DNA of 64,000 nt from assembly GCA_964462425.1 (NCBI GenBank), contig CAYWYD010000004.1:12173-76172 (forward strand), in the 5' to 3' direction. Under the pieces are notes generated by a model that was not told the DNA's origin, searched no databases, and saw only the letters and a program-made list of their open reading frames with translations. Shown here in pieces: positions 28,289-64,000 of this stretch. Position numbers and translations under genes: made by a program. Numbering within the stretch: the first letter of the stretch is position 1; every line of letters begins with the position of its first letter. The DNA comes from an uncultured Thermoplasmata archaeon. Lineage in GTDB: Archaea > Thermoplasmatota > Thermoplasmata > Halarchaeoplasmatales > Halarchaeoplasmataceae.

Positions 28289-28290
28289 CT

Positions 28291-38810: not shown

Positions 38811-38968
38811 CTTATCACATATGAAAAAGGGTTATTCCTTATTTATAAGGGTTATTTCACCATTTTCGAACAAACATAAATCTAGACTCCGATTGACGAT
38901 CTTTTAAGGAGAACCTCGATCCTGAATTACTTGACTTGGTAAACGACACTCCTCCATTTCATCATATT

Positions 38969-39319
38969 TCAGATATTCATATCGAAGCCTTTAGGATAAA
39001 AGATCGAGAGTACGAACAGCGCCACTAAACCTAAACCTCCAGCCCAGCTCAGCAGTAACACAACCGAAGGAAAGGTGACGATCGTGAAAACCATGTAAAG
39101 AAGGTATATTATCAGCAGTATCGTACCCACTGTTAGGAAAAGGTAGGCGGACTCTTTTTTACCAGTGTCCCAGTCCGAAACGCCGGAGGGATATCTCAAG
39201 CCTATATATCCAAGGAGGACAAAGGTCAATATGAACAAAGACCAGAAGGGATTCGTACCTAGTGAGAGTAGAACGATGAATACGATGACCGATAAAAAGA
39301 TCAGCACGCGATCTCTCAT
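38969..39319 (-). CDS. small polytopic membrane protein (116 aa, 4 TM)
   Basis: Hydrophobic helices throughout. Its start codon directly abuts the stop of the AAA gene upstream. Confidence 0.5.
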   Translation of the reverse strand: MRDRVLIFLSVIVFIVLLSLGTNPFWSLFILTFVLLGYIGLRYPSGVSDWDTGKKESAYLFLTVGTILLIIYLLYMVFTIVTFPSVVLLLSWAGGLGLVALFVLSIFYPKGFDMNI

Positions 39320-44625: not shown

Positions 44626-44631
44626 TGCACC

Positions 44632-50600: not shown

Positions 50601-52152
50601 TGACTTCAAGTTCTACCGTAGTGTTATGCGTCTTTCCACCCCCTTCACCTTTGACGATCAACTCGTAGGTATCCGGTTGTAGGTCCGTAGAGGGATGAAC
50701 ATTCAAGGATGTTTCATTCGGATATGGGGAATTGAGAGTCGATGTTCCGAAATCCCAGGTCAGTTCACCGTTGGGTGAAGGAGAGACGCTATCTACCGAA
50801 AGATCGACTGGATCGTTGAAATTGTTTATCGCGCTCACATTCATCTCGTAACTGAAATCGGTTCCTACGCCCACTTTTTGATAGTCCGGTCTCCCGTCGA
50901 TATAGAAATTTTCTTGATCCTCGATGATCAGATCGACTTCCGAGGAATGATTCGATCCAGAATCTGCTGTGCTGTTAGCCCAAATCCTTAACGGATATTC
51001 TCCTGGGCTGGCATTGGTTGCTTCGATGAAAACTTTAGTTTCGTTGACAGTGTTTCCATCAGGATGTACCTTATTTTCGTCCAGATAGGCATTGACACCG
51101 GTCGGTGCCCCTCCCAACCATTGAAGATCTAGATCTATCGGATTAACCGCACCTTCGGCAGTAATCTCGACATCATATTCCGTATTTATCTCGGGACTTA
51201 TCAGACGAGTTTTAGGAGAAGCACTTATCCCGTGATCTCCTGAGAGAAGGATATCATATTCCTGGTGGTCAGGATTGTCTCTGTTGTGGTTCAAAACCAC
51301 GATCCCATACCACCCAGTTTGTTCTGGGGTGAAGTTGACTATCTCCTCTTCTACTCCATTCACCTCATCAACCACACCGCTAGCTAATGATTCCTGAGGG
51401 ATGGCGGAATGATTTCGGACTATATGGTAGCTCAAATGGTTATCTTCTGTAGCTTCTGTAGTGGGCAGACTTAGATCATATGTGCCTTCTTTGTATAAAA
51501 ATGAAGAGTAAACATTCAGAAGTGGAGGATGACCATCAGTATTATCTATTGATCCAAAGAAATTTCCATCCTTGGTACCATCATCCCTCTCACCGGCGAT
51601 CAACGCGCTAGTTCTCGTTTCTCCGATCTGTAGAGGCCCGGGAGAATCTGGGTTATCATCATACAGCTCCCCGGAATGCGAATCCGATTCGATCGCGTAA
51701 TTCATATGGTCATCTCCACTATAATTCTCTCCCTCAAATGGTAAAATTCTTGAAAAATAGGCCGTTTCAGATTCGGGATCGGGTTGTCTCACCACAACCG
51801 TATCCATTTTCCCCAAGCCTCTATAAGAGGAAACGACTTCTCTATCAAAATCATAATCTTCATACAGTTCAAGATCAAAATCGCCGGTTACATCCGTACT
51901 ATCTTCTGGCAATAGAGCAATTCCTGTATAATGCCCATTAGCATAGATCTTATCCCTGTTTGGAACCATTTCTTCACTGGGATCAAAAAAACCTCCCGAT
52001 GGCACTTGGATATATTGATTATCCGGTTCGTGGTTATTCAGCGTATAGGATTTCCCTCCAGTAAGAGCACTCGCTAGAGGAGTCAGGAGCATAATATTGA
52101 CTACAAGCAGGCCTACTATAACCAAAACAGCTATCCGCCTCGATGCTTTCAT
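44632..52152 (-). CDS. giant (about 2506 aa) type-I membrane surface protein built from roughly 18-20 tandem Ig-like repeats of about 100 aa, with cytoplasmic tail containing a helix-hairpin-helix motif
   Basis: Signal peptide MKASRRIAVLVIVGLLVVNIMLLTPLASA. The ORF track extends to a GTG at 52164; the ATG at 52150-52152 is preferred. Two alternating repeat types (VDN..P...I.SP..G..I.G.Y.F...A.D..GV..V...VFG..Y.A.YN.GTGYYE... and V.VDN..P...I..P......V.G.V.V...I.D..L....YR.D.G.W..M...........W.T.....G.H......A.D..G). TM ISFLLILILIVFILYLG. K/E-rich tail with LTNKTKDELKNIKGIGEKRAEHL. Confidence 0.8.
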   Translation of the reverse strand: MKASRRIAVLVIVGLLVVNIMLLTPLASALTGGKSYTLNNHEPDNQYIQVPSGGFFDPSEEMVPNRDKIYANGHYTGIALLPEDSTDVTGDFDLELYEDYDFDREVVSSYRGLGKMDTVVVRQPDPESETAYFSRILPFEGENYSGDDHMNYAIESDSHSGELYDDNPDSPGPLQIGETRTSALIAGERDDGTKDGNFFGSIDNTDGHPPLLNVYSSFLYKEGTYDLSLPTTEATEDNHLSYHIVRNHSAIPQESLASGVVDEVNGVEEEIVNFTPEQTGWYGIVVLNHNRDNPDHQEYDILLSGDHGISASPKTRLISPEINTEYDVEITAEGAVNPIDLDLQWLGGAPTGVNAYLDENKVHPDGNTVNETKVFIEATNASPGEYPLRIWANSTADSGSNHSSEVDLIIEDQENFYIDGRPDYQKVGVGTDFSYEMNVSAINNFNDPVDLSVDSVSPSPNGELTWDFGTSTLNSPYPNETSLNVHPSTDLQPDTYELIVKGEGGGKTHNTTVELEVTTGLNAGMYSPIEDELISGQYTFQADASYDGGTIDEVRFTFGGNLSTLGTLSGAYSTTSGLWERDVDTTGYPDGISTVKATVVGTDGARYTSKPVTFETKNTPPNPTILSPSDHEYVNDAIEIRVNTSEKISDVQYRIDEQAWQPMIIDNEGGNSISWLAQWDTTSVSDGLHDITIEATDKAGLSGQSSTTVYVDNNPPSLDIVSPVNGETIQGQYKFQALAEDTVKMDRVNITVFGSTTSMVFNEVTGYYERTFRTSTVSDGNYTAHMQGWDRVGHSSQNQSVDFQVANAPPSMTIHSPQAGQILQNTHTLKAEVESDFLETVEYRVDDGAWETMEENTTLDNYTADWDTTAVPDGPHTLTFRAVDEVGHETEVSRDVKVDNTAPTGTVVEPLNGEFISGEYTFRITASDEVGVKSVEIKVFSGIYPATYNEGTGYYEYSIDTNSIDDGEYTVNATIEDEVGWTYTTSDVTFSVDNSAPAVSIVNPTPNSYVSGNVSVETNITDMYLDSAEARIDEGTWEAMEESNNLWTYEWNTSDYSEGEHQIHVRAMDDSGKSTMQNINVIVDNENPTASIISPNPDADIQGTYTFQVSANDENGVDVVSINVFGENYTAGFNQGTGFYEKSIITTTVEDGDHAIEATVKDDSGKETVVDAVNFSVDNTNPAVDIVAPNQGDYIDREIEINATTHDKFLKNSHYRIDGGSWNEMDIEENYSTAYWNTTKFSEGHHRIEVRSVDEIGHQTMDSIDIIVDNEKPGGSIASPFGGEYVSGSFIFQISAEDENGIDQVKVDVFNQTYTAEYNSGTGMYELVLVTTTIEDGTYNISATIKDNAGWEIELDPINFHVNNEEPTLSIVGPEAGKIMTGKDEVRVRAEDKFLSGVRYRVGDSGWHAMDEEGNEEWTSIIETSNFTDGAHTIQFEAIDRGGLRTRQSVEVIFDNTGPEGEIVTPSESDFVDERIRFQINADDEVGVERVMINFLEVEGENASDIDELETQEMYYDVTTGSYMFEVATFRYTDGEARFNATVIDKAGFRTDLGEVDFFIDNSPPEVEYLEPLQGDFVSGTVNITAEIDDDPFIPEVEYRINERTWSSMERERDEYSFSLNRTEYEECLEEGVINETLRQAFEDKGYEVEEDANLSEEDGKWFVSEDGKREYRIELSEEELNIYELGRGWIAEWDTTTIVDGEHTIAIRARDDVGHVTLNEIEVTVDNHEPKVEILNPVSDQFIEGDLTFQIRAADKVGIETVVLDIYALVSDEPHTGNWTIEATYNPSTGYHEATLDTTLEQEDGYWNVTASATDLSGKMNITETIEFRVVNHDPSLTINSPRHGEYVSGQVEVDAEVEDAFPGPAYYSVDDGGWTPIIVPWNTTGYSDGEHSLDIMATDQAGNSVVRTIRVTVINTEPEASIVSPIEEQFVEDWFQFRVNARHEVEVESVEAHLFNETLELSFDRESGYYVYEIDTRNLADGTYTFNATATDPIGNMHRTNTISFHVDNNAPELDINSPRNGEYIRDTVELNVTSEDEFMKGVMYSVDDTGFVPISEELNTTRLSDGEHTITVRATDEAGHITTRKVTVIVDNVAPTIRLHSPRREEVISGEHEIKVFVDSEVQEVMIEFEGNIGPFPMEKTAEENKYSYLLQSTKLTGEDGRGVFDVNVTVVDVAGHERGSQFEITVDNAGPMIEMTGPVENILNETSVQGSTTFSLNVSSLAGVENVQINIDGRGWQDMMLVKNNTYMYQWEAAEEDDGEHTYVIRIEDSAGNVNQYSGTVEVDNPPDYWGIFQNNIPGISFLLILILIVFILYLGRNEVRERIKREEKEGEEGEKEEEEEKESGWISSPLSSKEEEKGESRGASPSERKVKKKKARPMKKTKRKEKEKQEEQVEKETGKQETVEEKEDQGHSIEVLNLNGRVEARLKNQEITSVEELTNKTKDELKNIKGIGEKRAEHLEEKLKEMGLSLKSEKGGKGGDGGEEKGLMDSVMEADLPSDKE

Positions 52153-52358
52153 AAAAAACACCACATTAATTCACTACAATATTCCCATGATTTAAGTTTT
52201 TCTTTAACAATTTTCGAATGTTGTATTCCGGAAAAATTTCGTTAAGTTGTTCGGAAAATACACATATCTCCGAATAAACAGTAGAACTCCTCGATATATT
52301 TGAGGAAAATAATCTGAGAAAAAATAATAAAAAAAAGAAAAGGATTTTTGACCTGTTT

Positions 52359-55300
52359 TTACTCCTCCTCACCGAATCTTTCTTTAAATTCCTCATCGAG
52401 TTCTTCATCAAGTACTTCCTGGTCAACGGGTTCTTCCTCTTCAACAAATTGCTCTTCGTACGGTTTCTCTTCTGGTCCTACTTCCCCGTAATCCTCGGAA
52501 TAATCTTCGGTAGGTTCTTCAGTAAATTCTTCTTCCTGAGGTCCCTGGTCAAAGGTTTGTTCTCCTTCATCAGATGGTGGAGGAGGTTCCTCGTACAATC
52601 CCTCCATCTGCTCGTCCGCCGGTCCTTCATCCTTTTCCCTGCGGAGTAAAACCAATACCAGCACGATTATGGCCGCTATGATGAGGATGAGTATCAACCA
52701 CCAATAACCACATAAAACAGACATCACACCGCCAGCTCCATCGTCATCAGCTAGAGTAGTAACTTGTACCGCGTCACTTTGATCGTCGTCGCTCGCGACC
52801 TCAAGTTCGTATTCACCTTCTGCCTGAGGTTCCCATGTGAATTTGTCTTGCTTTTCTTCTCCAGGCCCAAGAGTAAGGGCTACAGAGTCTACCGAGACAC
52901 CGTCCACATAGAAAACTATCTGTTGAGTATCTTCAACACCACCTGTATTCGTGACTTTGTATTCTAAACTGACTTCTTCGCCTTTTTTAACTTCGTCTTC
53001 GTAGTTGGTGATCTCGACCGAGAAGTATGCTGAGGCCGGTTCCTCTTCGAAGTGAGCCGTTACCTCCTTGTCACTATCCAGAGTTATAGTTATCTCCGGA
53101 TCTTCCTCTCCATCTTCGGGATAATCGCCTACCCAGTGACTGAACTGCCAATCAAGGTCGGGTACAGCTTCGATAGTGACTTCTTCTCCCATAGGATGGG
53201 TATATGTGTCAGGTGTAGGATCTGTACTTCCACCTTCTTCCGCGTTTATAACCAGTTCATATTCCGTTCCAACTTCTTCGAATTCTGCCGTGATAGTGTA
53301 GTTACCTTCCATCGTTATCGTTGTTTCGTTAGCTCCCGTATCATCGATGTTTTCAACGTCACCTATCCATTCGCTGAATTCATAACCTTCATCAGCTAAC
53401 GCCTCTAAATCCACGACTTCGCTTGAATTGTATTCGAAAGTCCTTTCTCCTGGCACCACCACTTCTCCGCCCTCTGCCGAGTTTATGGTGAGTTCGTATT
53501 TTACAACGGAACTTTCTTCCCCGAAATGAGCCGTTACGTTCTTATCGCTGTTCATCGTTACAGCTATCTCGTTTTCCGTTCCTTCGTAATCCCCGGTCCA
53601 CTCGACGAAGTACCAACCTTCACCCGCCATTGCCGTGATATTCACTTCTTCGCCTTCTTGGTAGTTGTGCATACCCTCGGAGGGTTCTGTGGTGCCTTCT
53701 CCTTCGATGTTGATAGTTAGAGTGTACTCTTCAGGCTGTTCAGATTCTACCGTCAGAGTTGCTTCATCGGTGAAATCTTCTCCTTCATAAGTGTATGTTC
53801 CAGTTACCGTCCACTCGCCGACATTTTCAGAGGTGTATACATTATCGTTCCAGCTACCACCTGCCCCAGACTCTATAGACCACACCGTATCCCCAGTAAT
53901 CTCGTACTCGCTATTCTCCACATCGTAGGCAGTGGCAGTATATTCCTGTGAAGACCCGGCAGTCAGGTTAGATTCTTGCGGAGAAATTTCGATATGATCG
54001 ATATCGGCAGCTTCAACGGTCAATAACGCCTCATCAGTTAAGGTGGTACCGTTAGATGTGTAAGTTCCGTTCACGGTCCAATTACCCTCGTTCTCAGATG
54101 TGTAGGTATTCTCATTCCAGCTACCACCTGCCCCAGCCTCTATAGACCAATCGACTTCTCCGGTAACTTCAAAATCGTTATTATATGTATCATATGCTGT
54201 AGCTGTGTAGCTGATACTGTTGCCCGGGAGTATAGATACTTCATTTGGTTCTATCTCTATACTCTCAGCCTCCGAAGGTTCTACTATCACTGTAGTCGGG
54301 TCGGAAGTGAGTCCTTCATAAGTCGCTGTTACCTCGTAATCCCCGACCGTTCCTCGAGAGAAAACACCGGCCGTAGCGTTCTCCCAATCGAACGCAGCAA
54401 CATCGTCTGTTATCAATTCATCATCTTGATCATAAGCTTCTGCATTGAACTGTAATTCTTTTCCCGCTTCTATCGTCTGATCGGTATCCGGATAAATCAA
54501 AACCTCGGCTACATTAGTGGTATCGAAATCGGCAGTTATGGAATACTCACCTTCGATCCTTATAGTGGTTTGATTAGCTGTAGTATCGTCTATTGTTTCA
54601 TTGTCTCCTGTCCACTCGACGAAGTAGTAGTCTTGAGCGGCTACAGCTTCAAGATCAACTATCTCCCCTGAGTTGTACTCGAACGTGTCTTCCCCGGGCT
54701 CGCTCACGGAACCACCATCTGTCGAGGATACGGTTAGATTGTAAGTAGTTATCTCGAACCCCGCAGTGATTGAATAATTATCTAGCATCTCTATATCCGT
54801 CTGATTCGACTCAGTACTTCCAATCGTTCCGGTATCTCCCGTCCACTCGACGAAATGGTAATCCGGATCTGCTACCGCCTCGAGATTCACTATCTCTCCG
54901 TCTTGGTAACCGAAGGTCCCTTCTCCCGGTACCGCAACGTTACCTCCTCCCGTCGAATCAATCGTCAAAGTGTAATCAGTCTCCGCGAACTCGGCTGTTA
55001 TGGAATAGTTATCCTGCATCTCTATACTCGTTTGATTTGATTCCTTATCGACTATAGTTCCGGTATCTCCCGTCCAATTGACGAAGTGATAGCCATCGTC
55101 CGGGATCGCCTCTAGATCCACGACTTCACCCGGAATGTAAGAAAAGGTCCCTTCTCCCGGTACCGCAACGTTACCTCCTCCCGTCGAATCAATCGTCAAA
55201 GTGTAAGAGATCACGGTCACCGTGGTGATCGGAGAGGTCATGCCGTCATATGTTGCTGTCACGTTGTAGTCTCCAGCAGTGGTCTCGTAGAAGACCCCCT

Positions 55301-58300
55301 GCGTCGCATTCTCCCATCCAAAATCATCAACATTGTCCGTTATCAAATTGCCGTACGTATCCTTGGCCTCTGCATCAAACAACAGTTCTTCTCCAGCGTA
55401 CACTACCTGATCCGCTTCCGGATAGATCGAGACGGTATCTACTGCTCCTGGCTCTACCGTTAATGAGGCGTTATCGGTAAAGATCACTCCGGTTGCATTT
55501 TCGTATTCACCCGTGATATTCCACTCGCCCGCCTCTTCGACCGTTGTTACGTTATCAGTCCAAGATGAACGATCTGTAGGCTCAACATTATCAGACCAAG
55601 TCGTCCCGCCAGTAACGTCGAACCCATTGTCCCATTTGTCATATGCTGTAGCGGTGTATCCCTGAGTCGCTCCAGCTGTGATCGACGCTGTCTGCGGGGA
55701 TACCTCTATATCTTCCGCATCTGCCGGCTCCACTGTAACAGTAACAACACTTGAGGTCACGCCTTGATAGGTCGCGGTCACGTCATAATCGCCCGCTACG
55801 GTTTCGTAGAAAACTCCGATATCGGCGTTCTGCCAGTTGAAATCTTCTGGATTATCGGTGATCAAATTACCGCTTCCATCATAAGCCTCAGCATCGAACT
55901 CTAATTCCTTTCCAGCCTCTATTAATTGGTCAGTATCAGGATAGATCAGTACATTAGACACGTCGGTAGTACCAAAATTGGCCATTATCGAATAATTGTC
56001 ATTCATCGTTATCGTAGTTTGATTAGACGTTGTATCTCCTATAGTATTATTGTCGCCTGTCCATTCAACGAAATAATAACCTTCGTCGGGTCTCGCTTCG
56101 AGATCTACAACCTGACCAGCACCGTACTCAAAAGTGTCCTCTCCAGGAGTCGTCACATTACCTCCAACGGTCGAATCTATCGTCAATGTGTAATTGATAT
56201 CGGTGAATTCAGCCGTTATCGAATAATTGTCATTCATCGTTATCGTGGTCTGATTAGACGTGGTATCTCCTATCGTATTATTGTCGCCCGTCCATTCAAC
56301 GAAATAATAACCTTCGTCAGGTCTCGCTTCGAGATCTACAACCTTACCAGAAGTGTACTCGAACGTGTCCTCTCCAGGGGTCGACACACTACCTCCGGCG
56401 GTCGAATTTACCGTGAGATTATAAGTTTCTTGAACAGTTTCCCCAGTCACTTCGATATCAATATGATCAGCAGATTCGGTACCCCAATTGCCTGCAGAAT
56501 CCTGACCTCTAACCCAGTACCGGTAAGTTCCTCCAGTTGCCCAGTGATCCGGGACTGTTAAACTTTCAGCTTCTGCTATTTCGGTTGAACTGCTGCCGGA
56601 TATCGTCATGCCTGAAGCTTGGGACCAATCTATAGTGCTAGGGTCAGTGACGGTGGTATCCGTTTCGACATACTCCGCCGTCTGTATCCCGCTCCGACCG
56701 GTCATAGTATCATCAATACTAGCGGTCAGATTGAAATTATTGTCAGTCGACATATTCACGGGATTCGGATTTGAGGACACATGAGAGGTATCAGGTCCTT
56801 GAGTGTCGGGTTCCGATTTCCAGTCGGAATGTAGAATAGACAAAAAGACTTCGTGGTCTACATCACGTGTGGTTCCTTGAGATGAATGATAAGCCACATA
56901 GGCATAACTTGTACCATCTATCGTCTGGGAAGCCATATTCGGATTCAATTTCCTGTAATTATCGCGAGTCACATAATCGACCGTTACGCTACTATATTTA
57001 TCATTACTCCTTGCGACATTTATGTTAGGAACATCGAATGGAGTATCGGTCTCTAGATAAGAAGTCCATATCCAGCCGTCATTTCCAGCCGTTTTTCCTA
57101 AAATGTCAGCTCCGCTCATGTCTTCCTGTGAGACAGCCTTTCCCGCTACATTATCATATGATGTAAAATCGCTCTCTGCTGGGGGATTCGTTGAAGAGTA
57201 ATCCCCTGTAACATAAGAGGTAGTCAGATCATTGAAATCACCTGCGTTATCGTAAATGCAGCTCATATATACTTCGTTCGTCCCACTGTTGTTATAGTGA
57301 GCTGCCATCGGGAACTGGTGATTGTCGACAGGATCACCGGTAAGATCTCCGGCCACTTTCACTTCACTACTCCACCCGTCGTTGTCCTGTAACATCGTCA
57401 CGACCATCCTTTGATTTCCACTGCTATCTCTATAATAGAAGAAATGCCAATTTACGTCGTTCTGGTCCGTAACGCCGTTAGGGAAGAAATAAAAGTAACC
57501 GCTACTTCCATCAGCTCCCGGAACATCATTAGCACTATTCCAGGTCTCTCCTCCATCACTAGAGGTGACATATGCGATTCCAATATTGCTGGCTTTTCCA
57601 CTCGAATCCATATCAAGGTGTTCAAAAACATATGTCAGTTCTCCATCAGCGGTACCATCGTCTCTGAACAGCATGTATGAACCCCTCTTCATGTTGACGG
57701 TATCGGTCCCATAATTGTTATCTATCTGGACTGGTCCGTTCCACGTATCGTAGGCTCCGGTATCCGCCCATGCGGCTTTGGCTTCGTACTCGTCTCCGCC
57801 GCTTCCGGGTGTCTGCCCGTTCCAGTAGACAACCACTCGATCCTGATAAGTTCCCGAATCGATGTGCTGTAATTGCACGTAATTCGGATCGACCGTTGGA
57901 TTGGTAGACATCGGATTGAATGGGCCTTGCCATTGTATGGGTTCGCCATTTGTATCCAGCTCTGAATATTTCACCCTGACCTGTTTACCGTCTGGTGTGA
58001 CCATCTGATATGCGGCGAATATCCAGTTCGTTCCCCCTGAATCAGCAAATGTGATTATCTCAGGGAACATCTCATCCGCATCTGATTCCGCGAGCTTCTT
58101 CCTCTCGGGCAGCGGTTCAGTCAATATCTGGATGGTCATCTGTATGGTGTCAGAAGCGGATGGACTCGAAGGATCATCCTGAGAAACTGCGGTTATCTCG
58201 AATTCGATGACCTGTTCAGCCAATCCTGTGTTGGCCGTGATCATAACGTCTGTATTGGCTTTCTCAGTGCTTTCCAGTGAAAAACTTGATTGTGGACTAT

Positions 58301-60797
58301 ATGAAACAGTTAAGTCAGCTGGAGAAGAGTCACTTACTTCTATGGTATCCGGATTAGTACCCCAGTTGGTAATTTCCACCGGAAGATGTGTAGTTCCTCC
58401 CGAGGCAAGGCTTTGGGTAGTTGGATAATCCGTAGTAAGATCGACATTATAATCGTCCTGCGGGCCAAAATCCGCAGAGGTTACTAAAGCAAAATCTGCA
58501 TTAGAAGGAATACTATCAGCTTGAACCGTGAGTGTCCATGTGCCTGGTTCAGGATCCTTAATTTCTATCCTTTGCACCGTATTGACCGTGTCTATCGTCG
58601 AACTTCCCGGGGTAGTCCAACCGTTTTGATCATAGTTATCCACTCCTGAATAGTAAGTATTTCCATTCGGTGACTCAGCGTACATGTGAAGTTGCCTGTT
58701 CATCTCCATACCGGAGCTGTCCAACCAGTTGAGCGTAGCCTTGAAGGGCTCGTCGTTAGATGCGATCTCGAGGTTCATCCCTCCATCTGCTGCTGCATCC
58801 CAAGTACCAGTCTGATCAAAAGTCCCTTCAGCGAACTGATTGCTTCTCGGGGCTGATGGGAATAAGGATTTCCTCAGATTGGGCCGGCCCCAACCCTGAG
58901 CGTACCCAGGATACTCATAGAGATCTGGGTCCATCCTCTCGGCACCATTTATCATCGTAGCTTTTACTAAAGGATTAGTCGGATTTTGAATGCCATGCAT
59001 CTCTTTATAATACTCCCGGATCAAAACAGCCATCCCCGCTGCATGGGGTCCTGCCATCGAGGTGCCCTGCATGTACTGATAATCTGGGATCCCATCTGAC
59101 CCTTCTCCCGGTATAGACGTATCATACTCATCTACTTCCGTGATATAAGAGCTCTGATTCTGACCGTCATTGGCTTCATGTTCTCCTCTAGCTAGTGCGG
59201 AAATCATCGCGGTGCCTGTAGTCACCACATCTGGTTTTATCCTGCCATTAGAAAAACTAGGTCCACCTCTACTGCTGAAATCAGCAACATAATCAGGATT
59301 ATCGGCATTGTGATACTCGCCAGGTCTATAATTCTGACTCGCACCTACAGCTATAGTGTTCTTCGCCATCGGCCTGGGCGTCATAGTATGTTCATCGGGT
59401 CCCTCGTTTCCGGCGGAGAACATGATTATATTCTCAGGAGCGCCATTCATAGCACTGCTAGAATAGGGATCCATCCTATCATCTACATCTATCGAATTCG
59501 AGTCATAATCCGCTGGATTTTGCGCTCCCCAACTGTTCTGGAAGACTCTAGCACCGTCGGATTCCTGTCCGTCCCAGTATCCATGACTGGTGGATAACCC
59601 TCCAAAAGAACTAGTACATCCATCGAGAGAGAATTCCACCTCGGGAGCGACACCTGCGGCTTCCCCGTGATGCCATTCCCTAGTTGATGGGTCTAAGCCC
59701 ATATGATTTTTCCAGTTATACTCGTTACCTCCCACAATACCAGCGACATGGGTCCCATGAGCAACACCTGAGTTTTGTCCATCTGGATCTGAAGAACCAG
59801 TCTGGTCCGTGTATCTTATCACCCTATCTCCACCGGAACCTTTAAAGAAATCTGGATTTCCATCGTCTCCATTATAAATCTCACCTTCATCGAAGCCCGT
59901 ATCCTGGATACCGACCACCTCGCCTTCACCAGTCAATTCAACGGGGAGTCCGCTCCAGGAAGGGTACCACCCAGATTGGATCTCATGGATTTCATTAGCT
60001 GCGTTATCCTTGGTTTCGGGATAGCTGTACGGATCTATCCTTCTTACCTCTTCTAATCCAGCTATATCCGGGATCCGTAAAGGATCAACATTCACAATAG
60101 GACCTGTCGAAGTCTCTCTTTCGATGTCTATTCCCATCTTTTTTAGCTTTTCTCCGATCTCATTATCGGCTTCCTGATCCCATCCAGTAATCTTCACTAA
60201 TTCTTTTTCTTCCTCAGAACCGATCAAATCATCAGAAACTTTGTATCCAGAGTAATATGGACCTACCCATTCAACTATATCTAGCTCTTTAACTTGGGAT
60301 TTTGTCTCTTGATCCATACGCACTAACAGAGCATAATTAGCCACCTCTCGTTCTACCGAAGCACCGGTCTCGCTTATCTGTTCTTTCCACTCCATAGATT
60401 TGGCGGGCCCTACAAACTGTACAATATATGCTCCAGTTTTTTCGCTGTATTCCGCTGGTAAATCCGGAGTTCCTTCTCTCCTGTCAAAGGACTCTCTTAT
60501 CGTATCTAAATATATATCGTATCTAGAATCATCAATCCCCTCGCGGTCAGAAATTCTTTTTATATCCTCAGCTCGCCTTTCGGGGACCTCTACGAGATAT
60601 CTCCCATTCTCATAGTCCACTAAGATTTCCGTGTTTTCCTTTATATATTCCACATTTTGTTCATTTCCGACTTCAACAAGTACCTTTGTTTTTTCTCTTT
60701 CATCAATTCCCATCGCAGTAACCGTCAATGTCGAGAAAACCAGTATGGCAACCGCAAATATTGAGACAATAATCTTTCCTTTTAGAATTTCCATCAT
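52359..60797 (-). CDS. giant (2812 aa) membrane-anchored subtilisin-like serine protease (peptidase S8) with InlB-B-repeat-like, Big2-like and CARDB-like domains
   Basis: Signal peptide MMEILKGKIIVSIFAVAILVFSTLTVTAMG. Catalytic triad motifs VVGIQDTGFDEG, HGTHVAGIVGG and GTSMAGPHAAGMAVL. At least 12 repeats of Y.LT..S..GG.V..PGE.TF.Y..G..VDLEA.PD.GY.FVEWTGD. Big2-like VTVEP...I.ISP....L.AG.SQ.YTA.AYD. CARDB-like YKVTNTGGVEDTQQIVFYVDGV. TM WWLILILIIAAIIVLVLVLL. Acidic tail. A GGAGGA Shine-Dalgarno sits 8 nt upstream of the ATG. Confidence 0.85.
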   Translation of the reverse strand: MMEILKGKIIVSIFAVAILVFSTLTVTAMGIDEREKTKVLVEVGNEQNVEYIKENTEILVDYENGRYLVEVPERRAEDIKRISDREGIDDSRYDIYLDTIRESFDRREGTPDLPAEYSEKTGAYIVQFVGPAKSMEWKEQISETGASVEREVANYALLVRMDQETKSQVKELDIVEWVGPYYSGYKVSDDLIGSEEEKELVKITGWDQEADNEIGEKLKKMGIDIERETSTGPIVNVDPLRIPDIAGLEEVRRIDPYSYPETKDNAANEIHEIQSGWYPSWSGLPVELTGEGEVVGIQDTGFDEGEIYNGDDGNPDFFKGSGGDRVIRYTDQTGSSDPDGQNSGVAHGTHVAGIVGGNEYNWKNHMGLDPSTREWHHGEAAGVAPEVEFSLDGCTSSFGGLSTSHGYWDGQESDGARVFQNSWGAQNPADYDSNSIDVDDRMDPYSSSAMNGAPENIIMFSAGNEGPDEHTMTPRPMAKNTIAVGASQNYRPGEYHNADNPDYVADFSSRGGPSFSNGRIKPDVVTTGTAMISALARGEHEANDGQNQSSYITEVDEYDTSIPGEGSDGIPDYQYMQGTSMAGPHAAGMAVLIREYYKEMHGIQNPTNPLVKATMINGAERMDPDLYEYPGYAQGWGRPNLRKSLFPSAPRSNQFAEGTFDQTGTWDAAADGGMNLEIASNDEPFKATLNWLDSSGMEMNRQLHMYAESPNGNTYYSGVDNYDQNGWTTPGSSTIDTVNTVQRIEIKDPEPGTWTLTVQADSIPSNADFALVTSADFGPQDDYNVDLTTDYPTTQSLASGGTTHLPVEITNWGTNPDTIEVSDSSPADLTVSYSPQSSFSLESTEKANTDVMITANTGLAEQVIEFEITAVSQDDPSSPSASDTIQMTIQILTEPLPERKKLAESDADEMFPEIITFADSGGTNWIFAAYQMVTPDGKQVRVKYSELDTNGEPIQWQGPFNPMSTNPTVDPNYVQLQHIDSGTYQDRVVVYWNGQTPGSGGDEYEAKAAWADTGAYDTWNGPVQIDNNYGTDTVNMKRGSYMLFRDDGTADGELTYVFEHLDMDSSGKASNIGIAYVTSSDGGETWNSANDVPGADGSSGYFYFFPNGVTDQNDVNWHFFYYRDSSGNQRMVVTMLQDNDGWSSEVKVAGDLTGDPVDNHQFPMAAHYNNSGTNEVYMSCIYDNAGDFNDLTTSYVTGDYSSTNPPAESDFTSYDNVAGKAVSQEDMSGADILGKTAGNDGWIWTSYLETDTPFDVPNINVARSNDKYSSVTVDYVTRDNYRKLNPNMASQTIDGTSYAYVAYHSSQGTTRDVDHEVFLSILHSDWKSEPDTQGPDTSHVSSNPNPVNMSTDNNFNLTASIDDTMTGRSGIQTAEYVETDTTVTDPSTIDWSQASGMTISGSSSTEIAEAESLTVPDHWATGGTYRYWVRGQDSAGNWGTESADHIDIEVTGETVQETYNLTVNSTAGGSVSTPGEDTFEYTSGKVVDLEARPDEGYYFVEWTGDNNTIGDTTSNQTTITMNDNYSITAEFTDINYTLTIDSTVGGNVTTPGEDTFEYGAGQVVDLEARPDEGYYFVEWTGDNNTIGDTTSNQTTITMNDNYSIMANFGTTDVSNVLIYPDTDQLIEAGKELEFDAEAYDGSGNLITDNPEDFNWQNADIGVFYETVAGDYDVTATYQGVTSSVVTVTVEPADAEDIEVSPQTASITAGATQGYTATAYDKWDNGFDVTGGTTWSDNVEPTDRSSWTDNVTTVEEAGEWNITGEYENATGVIFTDNASLTVEPGAVDTVSIYPEADQVVYAGEELLFDAEAKDTYGNLITDNVDDFGWENATQGVFYETTAGDYNVTATYDGMTSPITTVTVISYTLTIDSTGGGNVAVPGEGTFSYIPGEVVDLEAIPDDGYHFVNWTGDTGTIVDKESNQTSIEMQDNYSITAEFAETDYTLTIDSTGGGNVAVPGEGTFGYQDGEIVNLEAVADPDYHFVEWTGDTGTIGSTESNQTDIEMLDNYSITAGFEITTYNLTVSSTDGGSVSEPGEDTFEYNSGEIVDLEAVAAQDYYFVEWTGDNETIDDTTANQTTIRIEGEYSITADFDTTNVAEVLIYPDTDQTIEAGKELQFNAEAYDQDDELITDDVAAFDWENATAGVFSRGTVGDYEVTATYEGLTSDPTTVIVEPSEAESIEIEPNEVSILPGNSISYTATAYDTYNNDFEVTGEVDWSIEAGAGGSWNENTYTSENEGNWTVNGTYTSNGTTLTDEALLTVEAADIDHIEISPQESNLTAGSSQEYTATAYDVENSEYEITGDTVWSIESGAGGSWNDNVYTSENVGEWTVTGTYTYEGEDFTDEATLTVESEQPEEYTLTINIEGEGTTEPSEGMHNYQEGEEVNITAMAGEGWYFVEWTGDYEGTENEIAVTMNSDKNVTAHFGEESSVVKYELTINSAEGGEVVVPGERTFEYNSSEVVDLEALADEGYEFSEWIGDVENIDDTGANETTITMEGNYTITAEFEEVGTEYELVINAEEGGSTDPTPDTYTHPMGEEVTIEAVPDLDWQFSHWVGDYPEDGEEDPEITITLDSDKEVTAHFEEEPASAYFSVEITNYEDEVKKGEEVSLEYKVTNTGGVEDTQQIVFYVDGVSVDSVALTLGPGEEKQDKFTWEPQAEGEYELEVASDDDQSDAVQVTTLADDDGAGGVMSVLCGYWWLILILIIAAIIVLVLVLLRREKDEGPADEQMEGLYEEPPPPSDEGEQTFDQGPQEEEFTEEPTEDYSEDYGEVGPEEKPYEEQFVEEEEPVDQEVLDEELDEEFKERFGEEE
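54200..56440 (-). repeat. intragenic in-frame tandem DNA repeats with 231-bp (77-codon) period, several units >90% identical
   Basis: Example: 55985-56215 vs 56216-56440 (ttatcgaataattgtcattcatcgttatcgt...ccattcaacgaaataataaccttcgtc...). A 66-bp exact copy occurs at 54913 vs 55144 (aaggtcccttctcccggtaccgcaacgttacctcctcccgtcgaatcaatcgtcaaagtgtaa). These encode the InlB-B-like modules. Confidence 0.8.
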
Positions 60798-60813: not shown

Positions 60814-63800
60814 TTAAAATAAAGAAAGGGATTTGGTTGTAGCCAAAGTTTTATCTGCCACATTCCTTACTTTTCCAATCTCACTAAGTCCTCCTTCGCC
60901 CTCGGGAATAACACTCTTTTCTGTCACTAGCCCTGTATCGTCTAACTCAGCTGATCGCTTTTTTGCCTGTACTTCTTCTACGATGACAGTCGTCGAAGAA
61001 CTCACGCCATTATAAGTTGCACTAACGGTGTATTCATCGGGTGTGTCGTAGTAGAAAACGCCTCTAGTGGCGTTCTCCCATTCGAACTCTTCCACATTAT
61101 CGGCTATGATATTGCCGAGAGTATCATAGGCTACAGCGGAGAATTCGATCTTCTCGCCGGAAGTTATGGTTTGATCTGCGGAAGGTGTCAGTTCAACTGT
61201 ATCTATAGTAGCGGGGTTGACCGTCAATAAACTCGTATCTGTCATTCCATTGTAATCTCCTGAAACGGTCCAATCACCTGTTATTTCAGAAGTATAGTCA
61301 CTCCCAGTCCAGCTACCTCCTGCTCCGTTTTCTATAGTCCAGGTCGTATCGCCTGTCATGTCTCCGATCTCGTTCTTGTATTTGTCGTAGGCTACTGCAG
61401 TGTAGGTCACGCTGTTCCCAGCCGTTACTGTTTCTTTCTCAGGACTAATCTCTATCCGATTCGCCTCTCCAGGTTCTACGGTTACTCCTGTTGGGGCCGA
61501 GGTAACGCTCTGATAAGTAGCTGTAACTTCGTAATCTCCTGCTTTTCGGCGGTTGAACACACCTCTCGTCGCGCTTTGCCAATTGAAATCGATCCTATCG
61601 TCCGTTATCAAGTTACCTCCTTGGTCGTATGCCGCTGCAGAAAACACTAGGTCGTTCCCAGCTTTTACTGTCTGATCTTGAGAGGGGGTTATTTCAACGT
61701 TGTCCACTTCTATAGTGGCAAACTCTGCAGTTATCGTATAATTTCCCTGCATCGTTATCGTAGTCTGGTTAGCCGTCGTATCATCTATCGTATTATTGTC
61801 GCCCATCCATTCAACGAAATAATAACCTTCTTCGGACCTCGCATCGAGGTCTACCATCTCACCAGAAGTGTACTCAAATGTGGCCTCGCCGGGCGTCGTC
61901 ACGTTACCTCCAGCGGTCGAATCAATAGTGAGTGTATAATTTTGTGTTCCTGACTCCGTAGTGAACGACCATGTAGCTGATGTGGTAGTCAAACTTCCGT
62001 CGTCTGCCACCACGTACCAATCGTAGGTAGTATTTGTAGCTAGTCCCGGCCACGTAACCGATGTAGTACCGTTCGTCACTCCGGTGTTCTGTCCTATCTG
62101 ACTACCATCTGAATCATCGTAGAATGTCACTGTCATGGAGTCACCGTCGGGATCTGAAACATCTACGCTCAGCGTCGGATCAGTGCTTATACCCGTCGCT
62201 CCACCCCCTGGGGATGGATTCGTCGGTTCTGCCGGCGCGGAGTTATTCGATTCACCGGGCTCAGGGACCGCATTGGTATTGCCGTCCTCATTACCTATAT
62301 CATCTTCCGCCCTTACAACGTACCACCATCTAATTCCGTCCGGTTCACCTTTATCTTGATCCCGGTAACTGTTAGTGCCCGCCGAGACACTGGTTAAATA
62401 ATTGCTACTATCCCAGGGTCCTGTTTCACTATCTGACCTATAAATATTATACTGAACTACGTCGTTCTCTCCGGCTCCGTCATCAGGGGATAAAGTCCAA
62501 TTCACTAAGTTGTCTTCCGTTCCATTCACGGCCGTGCCTTCAAGGAAGGCGTTATCCACGTACCAATCATTTAAGTCGTATGCATATCCATCAACCGTGA
62601 AACTAACGTAGAATGTGTCGGAACCCATATCAGTAGTTTCTATAGTGACTTCCTCCGTAGTTGGTCCTAGATTTCCATCGCCTGAAGTGTGGGACCACGA
62701 AGTATCATGCCAATTTGTTCCATCTGAGCTTGTCTGTATCTTTATAGTCACCGTATCCGTAGAACTCCCATAATCGTCATAATAATTGTCCCACTGGAAG
62801 TCAAGAGAATCCATACCGGTTGTATCGACTGGACCCCCATATAACCTCCATGTATCTGTACTATCTACGTAATCGAATCGTGCTTCTGGGGATGTCCCGC
62901 CAGCATTATTTGTACTGGATTGCTGCCACTGGCTTCCAGATTGAGACCAATTGGTTGGTGGGAACCCTCCATCAAAACTCTGATTGAGGAAAACTTGATT
63001 CTGGAGTCCAGACCACTCTACGTTAAGATCCGACGGACTAGCCACGCTACCGTCTACACTTGCAGTATCTGTCTTCGTAGCCGAAGAACCATCACCTATA
63101 TCCGCATCATCATAATAGGCGGTGATCGTATCTCCATCAGAAACCTGAAGGACTCCAGTGCTGTCCGTGGCTGATATATCTATTGAACCCTCGAAGATCC
63201 CATCATCCGTCTCTGTCAAAGTTACAGTTTCTCCTGAAGTTTCTGTATCACTGTCTACATCGATATCGAGACTCCCGCTTCCAGTGAGATCACCATCCTT
63301 GACAGTTAAATTAACATTATCTTCACTACTATAAGTGTCCTTTCCTATAGAAATAGTCCCGTTCGAAGGAGCCCTATTCACTCCGCCGCTTACAGTTAAA
63401 GCGAAGGGCTGAGTACTCTCGGGCACTTGGTGAGCACTCACCGTCAGCTCATAATTACCTTCTTGGATTCCATTTTGATTTGGTAAAAGTAAAATATCTT
63501 CTTCAACGTTCAATCCGTCAAACTCAGCAGTCCTCTGCCCGCTCCACGGATTGTCAGTCGGATTAGGCTCAGAATAACCCGGATTGTTTCCCGTGAACGC
63601 GTTCCCTACATACCTCGTACCATCTGGAGCCTCCAATTCAAGATCAAGATCATTGACTATCGCGGGATCACTCGAATCGGATCCTGAAGAACCCGGATAA
63701 TCGGTCCAGGCTAAAGTCACTTCCAATTCCTGAGTCGGATCATCTACGCCGAACTTCATGCTCCAACTTTCACCGGTATCGAGTTCACGGCTTTCGTTCC

Positions 63801-64000
63801 ATGAATCATAAGCTATCAGGTCTCTCGCATCTCCATCAAAATTTAGAACTCTGTCCAATTTGCTCCTGCCATAGCCTTGATCTCCATTAGGGAACCTATT
63901 ATCGTTATTATAAGCTCCACTCCCGGTTATTTCCACAGCACCATTGATTATTGTTGATCTAACAAGAGCATTACTCGGGTTGAAACCGTCCGCATCGGTC
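60814..64000 (-). CDS. second giant subtilisin-like protease paralogue (C-terminal >1060 aa present; N-terminal catalytic domain continues beyond window end)
   Basis: The frame stays open through 64000 upstream of the GTG annotated as the start in the ORF track (in-frame ...TDADGFNPSNALVRSTIINGAVEITGSG...). The visible N-terminal part GDQGYGRSKLDRVL aligns with the end of the S8 domain in the 2812-aa paralogue (GYAQGWGRPNLRKSL). It has the same InlB-B-like and Big2-like repeats and ends in a hydrophobic stretch. The stop lies 16 bp before the next gene's ATG. Confidence 0.75.
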   Translation of the reverse strand, partial: TDADGFNPSNALVRSTIINGAVEITGSGAYNNDNRFPNGDQGYGRSKLDRVLNFDGDARDLIAYDSWNESRELDTGESWSMKFGVDDPTQELEVTLAWTDYPGSSGSDSSDPAIVNDLDLELEAPDGTRYVGNAFTGNNPGYSEPNPTDNPWSGQRTAEFDGLNVEEDILLLPNQNGIQEGNYELTVSAHQVPESTQPFALTVSGGVNRAPSNGTISIGKDTYSSEDNVNLTVKDGDLTGSGSLDIDVDSDTETSGETVTLTETDDGIFEGSIDISATDSTGVLQVSDGDTITAYYDDADIGDGSSATKTDTASVDGSVASPSDLNVEWSGLQNQVFLNQSFDGGFPPTNWSQSGSQWQQSSTNNAGGTSPEARFDYVDSTDTWRLYGGPVDTTGMDSLDFQWDNYYDDYGSSTDTVTIKIQTSSDGTNWHDTSWSHTSGDGNLGPTTEEVTIETTDMGSDTFYVSFTVDGYAYDLNDWYVDNAFLEGTAVNGTEDNLVNWTLSPDDGAGENDVVQYNIYRSDSETGPWDSSNYLTSVSAGTNSYRDQDKGEPDGIRWWYVVRAEDDIGNEDGNTNAVPEPGESNNSAPAEPTNPSPGGGATGISTDPTLSVDVSDPDGDSMTVTFYDDSDGSQIGQNTGVTNGTTSVTWPGLATNTTYDWYVVADDGSLTTTSATWSFTTESGTQNYTLTIDSTAGGNVTTPGEATFEYTSGEMVDLDARSEEGYYFVEWMGDNNTIDDTTANQTTITMQGNYTITAEFATIEVDNVEITPSQDQTVKAGNDLVFSAAAYDQGGNLITDDRIDFNWQSATRGVFNRRKAGDYEVTATYQSVTSAPTGVTVEPGEANRIEISPEKETVTAGNSVTYTAVAYDKYKNEIGDMTGDTTWTIENGAGGSWTGSDYTSEITGDWTVSGDYNGMTDTSLLTVNPATIDTVELTPSADQTITSGEKIEFSAVAYDTLGNIIADNVEEFEWENATRGVFYYDTPDEYTVSATYNGVSSSTTVIVEEVQAKKRSAELDDTGLVTEKSVIPEGEGGLSEIGKVRNVADKTLATTKSLSLF
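61700..61960 (-). repeat. copy of the same 231-bp repeat module inside the neighbouring protease paralogue (direct orientation, about 5.5 kb from the copies at 56.2-56.4 kb)
   Basis: tccattcaacgaaataataaccttc at 61806 matches 56291. The flanking approx. 200 bp are highly similar. Confidence 0.7.

What the first reader, a model, noticed from the sequence alone, without database searches (positions are those of the whole stretch)
54200..56440. 231-bp in-frame tandem DNA repeats with >90% identity inside the protease gene, with a further copy in the neighbouring paralogue
Adjacent units such as 55985-56215 and 56216-56440 are almost identical at the nucleotide level, and a 66-bp stretch is exactly duplicated 231 bp apart (54913 vs 55144). 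Another copy lies in the next gene (about 61700-61960) in direct orientation. Nucleotide identity this high indicates recent expansion or gene conversion. It provides a substrate for repeat-number variation and for deletion or fusion between the two protease genes, giving phase- or antigenic-variation-like behaviour.
Basis: seen in the sequence. Interest (0 to 1): 0.55.

Follow-up and report, generated by a model that had tools for sequence, protein, structure and literature searches.

The report
Duplicated stalk domains in archaeal protease
The 231-bp repeats are ordinary duplicated 77-residue stalk domains (InlB B-repeat type) in a giant membrane-anchored surface protease of a salt-loving archaeon; most copies are old and diverged, so nothing here shows phase or antigenic variation.

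Summary
The repeat is real but overstated. On the minus strand, a 2812-aa gene (52359-60797) encodes a signal peptide, an S8 subtilase, a conserved 820-aa middle region, and a stalk. The stalk has 8 Flg_new_2 (divergent InlB B-repeat) units of 77 aa (231 nt) interleaved with 6 Ig-like domains. CARDB, a transmembrane helix and an acidic tail follow.

Only one adjacent pair (A1 56193-56423, A2 55962-56192) is highly similar: 90% over 203 nt and 84% over the full unit (dS 0.26-0.43). The copy in the upstream S8 paralogue (61708-61938) is 80-82% identical to A1/A2. B1/B2 are 76% identical, and the other 11 of 15 pairs are 60-67% with saturated synonymous sites.

The array is not contiguous: 2 units, 756 nt of Ig domains, then 3 units. 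The exact repeat is 63 nt, not 66 (54913-54975 = 55144-55206). It sits in an otherwise saturated pair (P ≤1e-5), which marks a short gene-conversion tract.

The closest genome (Ca. Saliniplasma, 75% aa) lacks the repeat block altogether. In 111 other Flg_new_2 proteins, 71% contain a unit pair ≥80% identical, so this is typical of the family. No close strain was available to test length variation. I file it as a new member of a known kind, of low interest.

The parts
52359..60797 (-). g2: 2812-aa surface S8 protease gene that contains the repeats
   Evidence: ORF, translation, Pfam Peptidase_S8 + 8x Flg_new_2 + CARDB
60708..60797 (-). N-terminal signal peptide / hydrophobic leader (aa 1-30)
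   Evidence: Hydrophobic window at aa 1-20; cleavage is inferred
58887..59930 (-). Peptidase_S8 catalytic domain (aa 290-637) with motifs DTG (D299), HGTH (H347), GTSMA (S580)
   Evidence: Pfam 115 bits against cutoff 21.8; motif positions
56424..58886 (-). Conserved middle region (aa 638-1458), co-conserved with the protease domain in about 36 Thermoplasmatota homologues
   Evidence: Homologues cover 94-100% of aa 1-1458 at 32-52% identity; 75% identity in L001
56193..56423 (-). Flg_new_2 unit A1 (aa 1459-1535)
   Evidence: AF2 model pLDDT 98, all-beta
55962..56192 (-). Flg_new_2 unit A2 (aa 1536-1612); 84% nt and 80.5% aa identical to A1
55206..55961 (-). Three Ig-like domains I1-I3 that interrupt the unit array
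   Evidence: Domain boundaries and identities; PDB sequence hit to LigA Ig-like domain, E 7e-7; only sub-threshold Pfam Big_3 hit
54975..55205 (-). Flg_new_2 unit B1
54744..54974 (-). Flg_new_2 unit B2 (76% nt identical to B1)
55144..55206 (-). 63-nt exact tract, copy 1 (start of B1): inferred gene-conversion tract
   Evidence: Exact match length and shuffle test P <=1e-5; dS 0.06 against pS 0.69 in the rest of the unit
54913..54975 (-). 63-nt exact tract, copy 2 (start of B2)
54513..54743 (-). Flg_new_2 unit B3
53739..54512 (-). Three Ig-like domains I4-I6 (267-nt period for I5/I6)
   Evidence: (families D3, D4)
53037..53726 (-). Three diverged Flg_new_2 units C1-C3
52782..53021 (-). CARDB domain (aa 2593-2672)
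   Evidence: Pfam 38.5 bits against cutoff 22.7
52644..52727 (-). C-terminal transmembrane helix (aa 2691-2718), followed by a 94-aa acidic tail (52362-52643)
   Evidence: Hydropathy and sequence; topology is inferred
60814..64000 (-). g3: upstream S8 paralogue, 5' end outside the window
   Evidence: Translation; 76% nt match to L001:13503-14470 inside an S8 gene
61708..61938 (-). Flg_new_2 unit G3 in g3, 80% nt identical to A1 and A2, direct orientation
60970..61707 (-). Three Ig-like domains J1-J3 in g3, same order as I1-I3 (49-60% aa, 53-57% nt)

Best explanation
The 231-nt repeats are domain-level duplications of a 77-residue all-beta module (Pfam Flg_new_2, the divergent InlB B-repeat or 'Listeria-Bacteroides repeat'). 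This module, with Ig-like domains and a CARDB domain, forms the membrane-proximal stalk of a giant archaeal surface subtilase.

Inferred layout: a signal peptide exports the protein and a C-terminal helix anchors it. The sequon-rich, probably N-glycosylated stalk then holds the N-terminal S8 protease and its 820-aa accessory region away from the membrane.

The stalk has a higher-order pattern of [Flg_new_2]n followed by [Ig a-b-a]. This block occurs once in the upstream paralogue and twice (plus a terminal Flg_new_2 triplet) in this gene. It was built by successive unequal recombination events of different ages. Most units are old, with saturated dS. The A1/A2/G3 group is younger: it arose by duplication and one exchange between the paralogues, after the split from the nearest sequenced genus. 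A short gene-conversion tract (at least 63 nt) has since been copied between B1 and B2.

All copies are under purifying selection (dN/dS 0.13-0.30), so they are maintained as functional domains. The repeats are best read as a fairly stable structural spacer or adhesion module, not a hypervariable switch.

Shown here: repeat anatomy, domain identities, divergence values and the conversion tract. Inferred: topology, glycosylation, stalk function and the recombination mechanism.
For: - Domain architecture: Pfam Flg_new_2 at 318 bits in 8 stretches, Peptidase_S8 and CARDB; TIGR02543 List_Bact_rpt.
- Exactly 9 units in the window by a custom HMM.
- AF2 model of the unit: pLDDT 98, seven beta strands.
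- Identity and dS matrices. Flanking Ig-like domains are only 55-62% nt identical.
- The 63-nt tract has P <=1e-5.
- The orthologue in Ca. Saliniplasma sp. is 75% aa identical over 1456 codons with pS 0.735. It has a wholly different C-terminal half and no tandem repeat.
- A1, A2 and G3 are closer to each other than to any of 811 units from other proteins.
- 71% of 111 other Flg_new_2-array proteins contain a unit pair at least 80% aa identical, median best pair 84%.
- Several hits combine Flg_new_2 with Peptidase_S8.
- 34 of 38 N-x-S/T sequons lie in the stalk; shuffles give 14.4 +/- 3.3.
- Leader, transmembrane helix and acidic tail.
- Flg_new proteins in archaea are regarded as adhesin-like surface proteins with a beta-grasp-like fold (PMC9723798).
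Against: - No experimental or population data exist for this gene. Stalk function, glycosylation and topology are inferred.
- Foldseek did not give a significant match to the InlB B-repeat structure (2y5p at rank 4, E 0.84, TM about 0.5).
- If the window comes from a short-read assembly, perfectly identical extra units could have been collapsed. The true array could then be longer and younger than it looks.
- The lower dS in the A1/A2 core (0.26) than in its 5' part (0.43) could reflect partial homogenisation. The run-length test for that pair is not significant (P 0.1-0.2).
Confidence: 0.8

Rival explanations
1. Periscope-type or contingency behaviour. The similar units recombine often enough that the population carries stalks of different length, or g3-g2 fusion alleles. 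This would change how far the protease projects or what viruses and neighbouring cells see.
For: - The repeats are direct and in-frame, with perfect tracts of 31 nt (A1/A2), 63 nt (B1/B2) and 25 nt (A/G3).
- A1/A2 just reach the 80% aa and >50-residue screen used to nominate Periscope Proteins.
- The layout matches the class: N-terminal functional domain, C-terminal anchor.
- The C-terminal half differs completely between relatives.
- In L001, four tandem S8 paralogues share a 520-760-nt 3' segment at 88-98% nt identity. Recombination between such genes therefore does occur in this lineage.
Against: - Only two of eight units reach 80% aa identity, and the array-wide median is 54%.
- Synonymous divergence is 0.26-0.43 for the best pair and saturated for most pairs. 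The same population sampled elsewhere differs by only 0.09%. Homogenisation is therefore rare on the strain timescale.
- Confirmed Periscope Proteins have 82-100% identical adjacent domains, and the greatest variation goes with the highest identity (PMC8201768).
- Bacterial-type MutS and MutL are encoded in the window. From general knowledge, these oppose recombination between 10-20% diverged sequences.
- No length variants could be found.
Confidence: 0.12
2. Assembly artefact. The high-identity core of A1/A2, the 63-nt identical tract, or both, result from consensus mixing or repeat collapse in a metagenome assembly and are not the true genomic sequence.
For: - The lineage is known only from metagenome bins (L001 is a MAG).
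- An independent short-read assembly of the same population breaks inside the neighbouring repeat-rich gene g1. Repeats do therefore disturb assembly here.
Against: - The gene is one intact 2812-codon ORF with all units in frame.
- Differences between units follow a coding pattern, with dN/dS 0.13-0.30.
- The tract boundaries coincide with a unit start.
- Repeats that are 84-90% identical are not normally collapsed.
Confidence: 0.05
3. The similarity of A1, A2 and G3 reflects strong constraint on an old sequence (protein plus codon usage), not a younger origin.
For: The A1/A2 core (codons 27-70) has dN 0.02 and carries conserved sequons (NNT, NQT, NYS), so protein-level constraint is strong.
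Against: - Constraint on the protein does not lower synonymous divergence. pS is 0.22-0.33 for A1/A2 against at least 0.69 for the equally constrained B and C units.
- The same motifs in B and C units use different codons (family D2).
Confidence: 0.03

Closest known systems
Flg_new / Flg_new_2 (Listeria-Bacteroides repeat, InlB B-repeat) arrays in surface and adhesin-like proteins, including S8 and C1 peptidases
   Same: The same Pfam family, at a score far above threshold. The units are tandem and 70-80 aa long. The protein is extracellular and multidomain. Many database proteins combine this repeat with Peptidase_S8. Internal unit pairs of at least 80% aa identity are the norm.
   Different: This protein is unusually long (2812 aa). 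It interleaves the units with Ig-like triplets. It is anchored by a C-terminal transmembrane helix with an acidic tail. It belongs to a halophilic Thermoplasmatota lineage, not to gut Methanomassiliicoccales or bacteria.
Periscope Proteins (SasG/Aap, Rib/alpha C, Sgo_0707 SHIRT; PMC8201768, PMC9704523)
   Same: A surface-anchored protein with an N-terminal functional domain and a stalk of tandem folded domains. One adjacent pair reaches the 80% aa screening threshold. Homologous recombination between repeats is the proposed mechanism.
   Different: Periscope stalks are long runs of 82-100% identical units, with length variation documented between near-identical strains. Here only two units qualify, most units are 55-65% identical, the array is interrupted by other domains, and no variation has been observed. 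The class has been described in bacteria only: 'archaea' does not occur in either paper.
Conserved giant S8 protease family of Thermoplasmatota (hits P0001-P0036; L001:5326-11700)
   Same: The N-terminal 1458 aa (leader, propeptide-like region, S8 domain, middle region) are collinear at 32-75% identity. Tandem S8 paralogues are also present in L001.
   Different: The relatives read in full (P0001-P0004, P0006, P0008 and the two L001 paralogues) carry other C-terminal modules and end in a ~150-170-aa 'WNFVSFNL...W(T/S)VEY'-type domain or a diverged form of it. The window protein instead has the Flg_new_2/Ig stalk, CARDB and a transmembrane anchor.

Membership tests
Pfam PF18998 Flg_new_2 (divergent InlB B-repeat) / TIGR02543 List_Bact_rpt | Profile HMM match above the curated cutoff | tested here: met
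   Flg_new_2 scores 318.2 bits against cutoff 23.6, with 8 stretches in g2; 46.4 bits in g3. TIGR02543 scores 28.6 against 20.95.
Pfam PF18998 Flg_new_2 (divergent InlB B-repeat) / TIGR02543 List_Bact_rpt | Fold like the solved InlB B-repeat (beta-grasp-like, PDB 2y5p) | tested here: inconclusive
   The AF2 model has pLDDT 98 and seven strands. In Foldseek, 2y5p ranks 4th with E 0.84 and TM 0.49-0.51. No PDB hit has E <=0.001.
Peptidase S8 (subtilase) | Profile match and Asp-His-Ser catalytic motifs in the canonical order | tested here: met
   Pfam 115.2 bits against 21.8, aa 290-637. DTG at 299, HGTH at 347, NSWG at 421, GTSMAGP at 578.
Peptidase S8 (subtilase) | Proteolytic activity | not testable with these tools
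   Needs expression and an enzyme assay.
Periscope Proteins (PMC8201768) | [quoted passage not shown] | tested here: inconclusive
   A1/A2 are 77 aa and 80.5% identical, which is borderline, and there are only two such copies. All other adjacent pairs are 60-75% identical.
Periscope Proteins (PMC8201768) | High DNA identity along the whole stalk | tested here: not met
   Across the five best-conserved g2 units, nt identity is 60-67% for most pairs, 76% for B1/B2 and 84% for A1/A2. The array is interrupted by Ig-like domains.
Periscope Proteins (PMC8201768) | Repeat-number variation among near-identical (at least 90%) homologues or strains | not testable with these tools
   No homologue above 75% identity was found in any collection. 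The one near-identical contig (L002) does not reach the gene.
Periscope Proteins (PMC8201768) | Cell-surface attachment with a distal functional domain | tested here: met
   By sequence inference only: N-terminal leader, N-terminal S8 domain, C-terminal transmembrane helix.
Phase-variable contingency locus | Repeat changes that switch expression on and off (frameshift or promoter spacing) | tested here: not met
   The unit is 231 nt (77 codons), so any gain or loss stays in frame. No short homopolymer or oligonucleotide repeat lies in or upstream of the gene.

The most novel reading that the evidence does not exclude
This could be an archaeal counterpart of bacterial Periscope Proteins. Halophilic Thermoplasmatota would keep tandem arrays of giant surface S8 proteases, and recombination between repeats and between neighbouring paralogues would reshuffle, lengthen or shorten their stalk and anchor modules. 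The evidence in favour is the G3/A exchange here, the 63-nt conversion tract, and the 88-98% identical 3' segments shared by four paralogues in L001. The result would be population-level variation in protease projection or surface identity.
Probability: 0.12. Interest if true: 0.45.

Novelty: new member of a known kind. Interest (0 to 1): 0.15.

Why it matters
This result mainly clears up the finding. The repeat is a normal by-product of how modular surface proteins grow, not a variation switch.

It has modest value in two ways. First, it documents a very large, probably glycosylated, membrane-anchored subtilase in the little-studied halophilic order Halarchaeoplasmatales. Second, it shows that the C-terminal stalk and anchor modules of this protease family are swapped and homogenised between tandem paralogues. 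If long reads ever showed length polymorphism, the Periscope concept would extend to archaea.

Tried and rejected
- Exact-protein look-ups of g2 and g1 found nothing on record.
- A metagenome scan with the N-terminal query, and a degenerate DNA pattern for the EGYYFVEWTGDNNT motif, both found nothing. No strain-level comparison was therefore possible.
- The genome scan gave one relative, at 75% identity.
- The two protein searches found nothing above 52% identity for the N-terminal part and 65% for the repeat part.
- The first AF2 run, with a 9-row alignment, failed (pLDDT 54). A 50-row alignment fixed it.
- Foldseek against the PDB gave no significant hit.
- Run-length tests for conversion in A1/A2, A1/G3 and A2/G3 were not significant (P 0.1-0.2).
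- The sigma-70 promoter and terminator scan is uninformative for an archaeon.
- The antisense ORF 55926-56561 was dismissed as a by-product of the repeat; it has no support.
- I considered guessing the cut C-terminal product of a Logan contig to recover g2 from ERR5414701. I did not try it, because it could not reveal copy-number variation.
Full report
**Observation**

All relevant genes lie on the minus strand:
- g1: 44632-52164, 2510 aa.
- g2: 52359-60797, 2812 aa.
- g3: 60814 to beyond 64000, cut by the window edge.

Tandem Repeats Finder reports one long-period repeat in the whole window: 55981-56414, period 231, 1.9 copies, 90% matches, score 728. The period is 77 codons and is in frame with g2.

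I cut the units at their protein boundaries (Y-x-L-T...):

| Unit | Window coordinates | Gene |
|---|---|---|
| A1 | 56193-56423 | g2 |
| A2 | 55962-56192 | g2 |
| B1 | 54975-55205 | g2 |
| B2 | 54744-54974 | g2 |
| B3 | 54513-54743 | g2 |
| C1-C3 (more diverged) | 53037-53726 | g2 |
| G3 | 61708-61938 | g3 |

A profile built from these units finds exactly nine copies in the six-frame translation of the window.

In-register nucleotide identity:
- A1/A2: 84% over 231 nt; 90% over the 203-nt blastn core.
- A1/G3 and A2/G3: 80% over 231 nt; 82% over 211-214 nt.
- B1/B2: 76%.
- All other pairs: 60-67%.

The stretch 54200-56440 is not a continuous array. Two units are followed by 756 nt encoding three Ig-like domains, then three units, then more Ig-like domains. 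However, '>90%' applies to one pair only.

**What the gene is**

From N-terminus to C-terminus, g2 encodes:
- a hydrophobic N-terminal leader;
- a Peptidase_S8 domain (aa 290-637, 115 bits) with the DTG, HGTH and GTSMA motifs;
- an 820-aa middle region;
- eight Flg_new_2 units (PF18998, divergent InlB B-repeat; 318 bits) and six Ig-like domains between them;
- a CARDB domain, one transmembrane helix (aa 2691-2718) and a 94-aa acidic tail.

The Ig-like domains have only sub-threshold Pfam Big hits. One of them matches the LigA Ig-like domain in the PDB by sequence, E 7e-7.

The protein is very acidic (pI 4.05). The best genomic relative is a MAG of Candidatus Saliniplasma (Thermoplasmata, Ca. 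Halarchaeoplasmatales). The host is therefore most likely a halophilic member of the Thermoplasmatota.

An AlphaFold2 model of unit A1 with a 50-row alignment is confident (pLDDT 98) and all-beta with seven strands. Foldseek places the InlB B-repeat structure 2y5p fourth, but without significance (E 0.84, TM about 0.5). Family membership therefore rests on the profile match, and the fold test is inconclusive.

Of 38 N-x-S/T sequons, 34 lie in the Flg_new_2/Ig region. That is 3.0 per 100 aa, against about 0.3 in the protease and middle regions. Shuffles of the stalk sequence give 14.4 +/- 3.3. This fits an exposed, glycosylated stalk, although glycosylation itself is inferred.

g3 begins in the window with the tail of an S8 domain. 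It is 76% identical at nucleotide level to part of L001:11808-15842, which carries Peptidase_S8.

**Age of the copies**

Nei-Gojobori estimates:

| Pair | dS | dN/dS or note |
|---|---|---|
| A1/A2 | 0.41 overall (0.26 in codons 27-70, 0.43 in codons 1-26) | 0.30 |
| A1/G3, A2/G3 | 0.56-0.63 | 0.25-0.29 |
| B1/B2 | 0.78 overall | 0.25 |
| the other 12 pairs | saturated or above 2.4 | 0.13 where measurable |

Two calibrators put these values in context. The g2 orthologue in L001 is 75% identical in protein with pS 0.735, which is saturated. A Logan contig from run ERR5414701 is 99.91% identical to window 38616-45192, with 6 mismatches in 6577 nt.

The A1/A2/G3 group is thus younger than the split from the nearest sequenced genus. 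Its copies nonetheless differ from each other by 10-20% at the nucleotide level, more than 100 times the divergence between the two samples of this population. That is not 'recent' in the sense of a contingency locus.

**Gene conversion**

B1 and B2 are a mosaic. Codons 1-21 have dS 0.06, and 63 nt are identical. Codons 22-77 have pS 0.69. A run that long, given 56 differences in 231 sites, occurred in 0 of 100,000 site shuffles and 1 of 100,000 codon shuffles. A short conversion tract copied between two old units is the simplest reading.

The same test is not significant for A1/A2, A1/G3 or A2/G3 (P 0.1-0.2).

A1, A2 and G3 are closer to each other (74-81% aa in register) than to any of 811 units from 120 other proteins (best 70-71%). 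The Ig-like domains that flank them are only 49-65% aa and 55-62% nt identical between the corresponding positions. The unit was therefore duplicated or exchanged within this genome, including between the two paralogues, later than the surrounding block was formed.

**Comparison with relatives**

The N-terminal 1458 aa are conserved end to end in about 36 Thermoplasmatota proteins at 32-52% identity, and at 75% in L001.

The C-terminal parts differ completely. The L001 orthologue (2124 aa) has no Flg_new_2 unit and no tandem repeat. It has two ~95-aa domains, a jelly-roll-like region, an Fn3-like region and a ~170-aa terminal domain. The repeat block is therefore a lineage-specific stalk.

In L001, four consecutive genes share 520-760 nt of their 3' ends at 88-98% nucleotide identity, while the rest of the proteins are under 30% identical. 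Three of them carry Peptidase_S8; the first is only a 3' fragment at the contig end. Recombination between tandem paralogues is therefore a feature of this gene family, and is stronger there than in the window.

**How ordinary it is**

The repeat region finds more than 1270 proteins at E <=1e-10, many with Peptidase_S8 or other enzymes attached. I cut the units in 111 of the top hits. The median of the best within-protein unit pair is 84% aa. In 71% of proteins at least one pair is 80% or more identical, and in 17% at least one pair reaches 90%.

The window protein scores 80.5% for its best pair and 54% for its median pair. That is at or below the family norm.

Flg_new-type repeats in archaea have already been described as putative adhesin-like surface proteins (PMC9723798).

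**Comparison with known variable systems**

[quoted passage not shown] Their number varies between strains, and the greatest variation goes with the highest repeat identity. The screening rule is repeats longer than 50 residues at 80% identity or more (PMC8201768; PMC9704523).

g2 shares the layout: a distal functional domain, a stalk and an anchor. One pair just reaches the screen. The stalk as a whole fails the high-identity criterion, and strain variation cannot be tested with the data at hand.

Phase variation in the strict sense is excluded. Any unit gain or loss stays in frame, and no short repeat is present.

A crossover between G3 and A1 or A2 (5515 or 5746 nt apart, direct orientation) would give an in-frame g3-g2 fusion carrying the g2 anchor. 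That is possible in principle, since the longest perfect run is 25 nt, but nothing suggests it happens. The window also encodes MutS and MutL. From general knowledge, these disfavour recombination between sequences this diverged.

**Verdict**

The feature is a real but ordinary domain-level repeat in the stalk of a new, very large archaeal surface subtilase. It carries one clear short gene-conversion tract and evidence of module exchange with the neighbouring paralogue.

The 'gene conversion' idea is supported locally. 'Recent expansion' holds only in a relative sense. The 'phase/antigenic variation' reading has no supporting evidence.

Two caveats remain. No strain or read data were available, and a short-read assembly could hide identical extra copies.

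Noticed in passing
L001:1-760, 4540-5221, 11212-11862, 15124-15884: In the Ca. Saliniplasma MAG, four consecutive genes end in a 520-760-nt segment that is 88-98% identical at nucleotide level. It encodes a ~170-aa 'WNFVSFNL...WSVEY' C-terminal domain. Three of the genes carry Peptidase_S8; the first is a 3' fragment at the contig end. The rest of the proteins are under 30% identical, so this is strong concerted evolution of a terminal domain of unknown function.
   Followed up: partly
window 44632-45600 (C-terminus of g1, 44632-52164, minus strand): The 2510-aa Big_7/Big_13 surface protein g1 has a transmembrane helix. After it come a Lys/Glu-rich tail and a helix-hairpin-helix domain like the RNA polymerase alpha C-terminal domain (Pfam RNA_pol_A_CTD 33 bits, HHH_5). 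Other halophile hits (P0091, P0108) also join repeat arrays to HhH domains. A nucleic-acid-binding module on the cytoplasmic side of a giant surface protein is unexplained.
   Followed up: partly
window 53037-56423 (stalk of g2): N-glycosylation sequons are concentrated in the Flg_new_2/Ig stalk: 34 of 38 in the protein, against 14.4 +/- 3.3 in shuffles. NQT and NYS/T sit at fixed positions in most units.
   Followed up: partly
window 26585-30915: Adjacent bacterial-type mutL (26585-28321) and mutS (28291-30915) genes, with all MutS domains I-V, in this archaeal window.
   Followed up: no
L002 = window 38616-45192: A Logan contig from run ERR5414701 is 99.91% identical to the window (6 mismatches in 6577 nt) and ends inside g1. 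The same population is therefore present in another public data set that could be mined for read-level variation.
   Followed up: partly
window 39320-44625: A 1301-aa protein with two AAA modules (Cdc48-like) and a 467-aa VWA-domain protein lie directly downstream of the surface-protein genes on the same strand. The pair is conserved as neighbours in L002.
   Followed up: no
window 60814-60970 (3' end of g3): g3 ends 16 nt before the g2 start codon. It has no transmembrane helix or recognisable anchor after its last Ig-like domain, unlike g2 and unlike its relatives in L001. It may be released, or may depend on g2 for attachment.
   Followed up: no
window 38374-38551: A cluster of short imperfect 9-42-nt tandem repeats lies inside the PepSY-domain gene 36879-38810. 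It probably encodes an acidic low-complexity linker.
   Followed up: no
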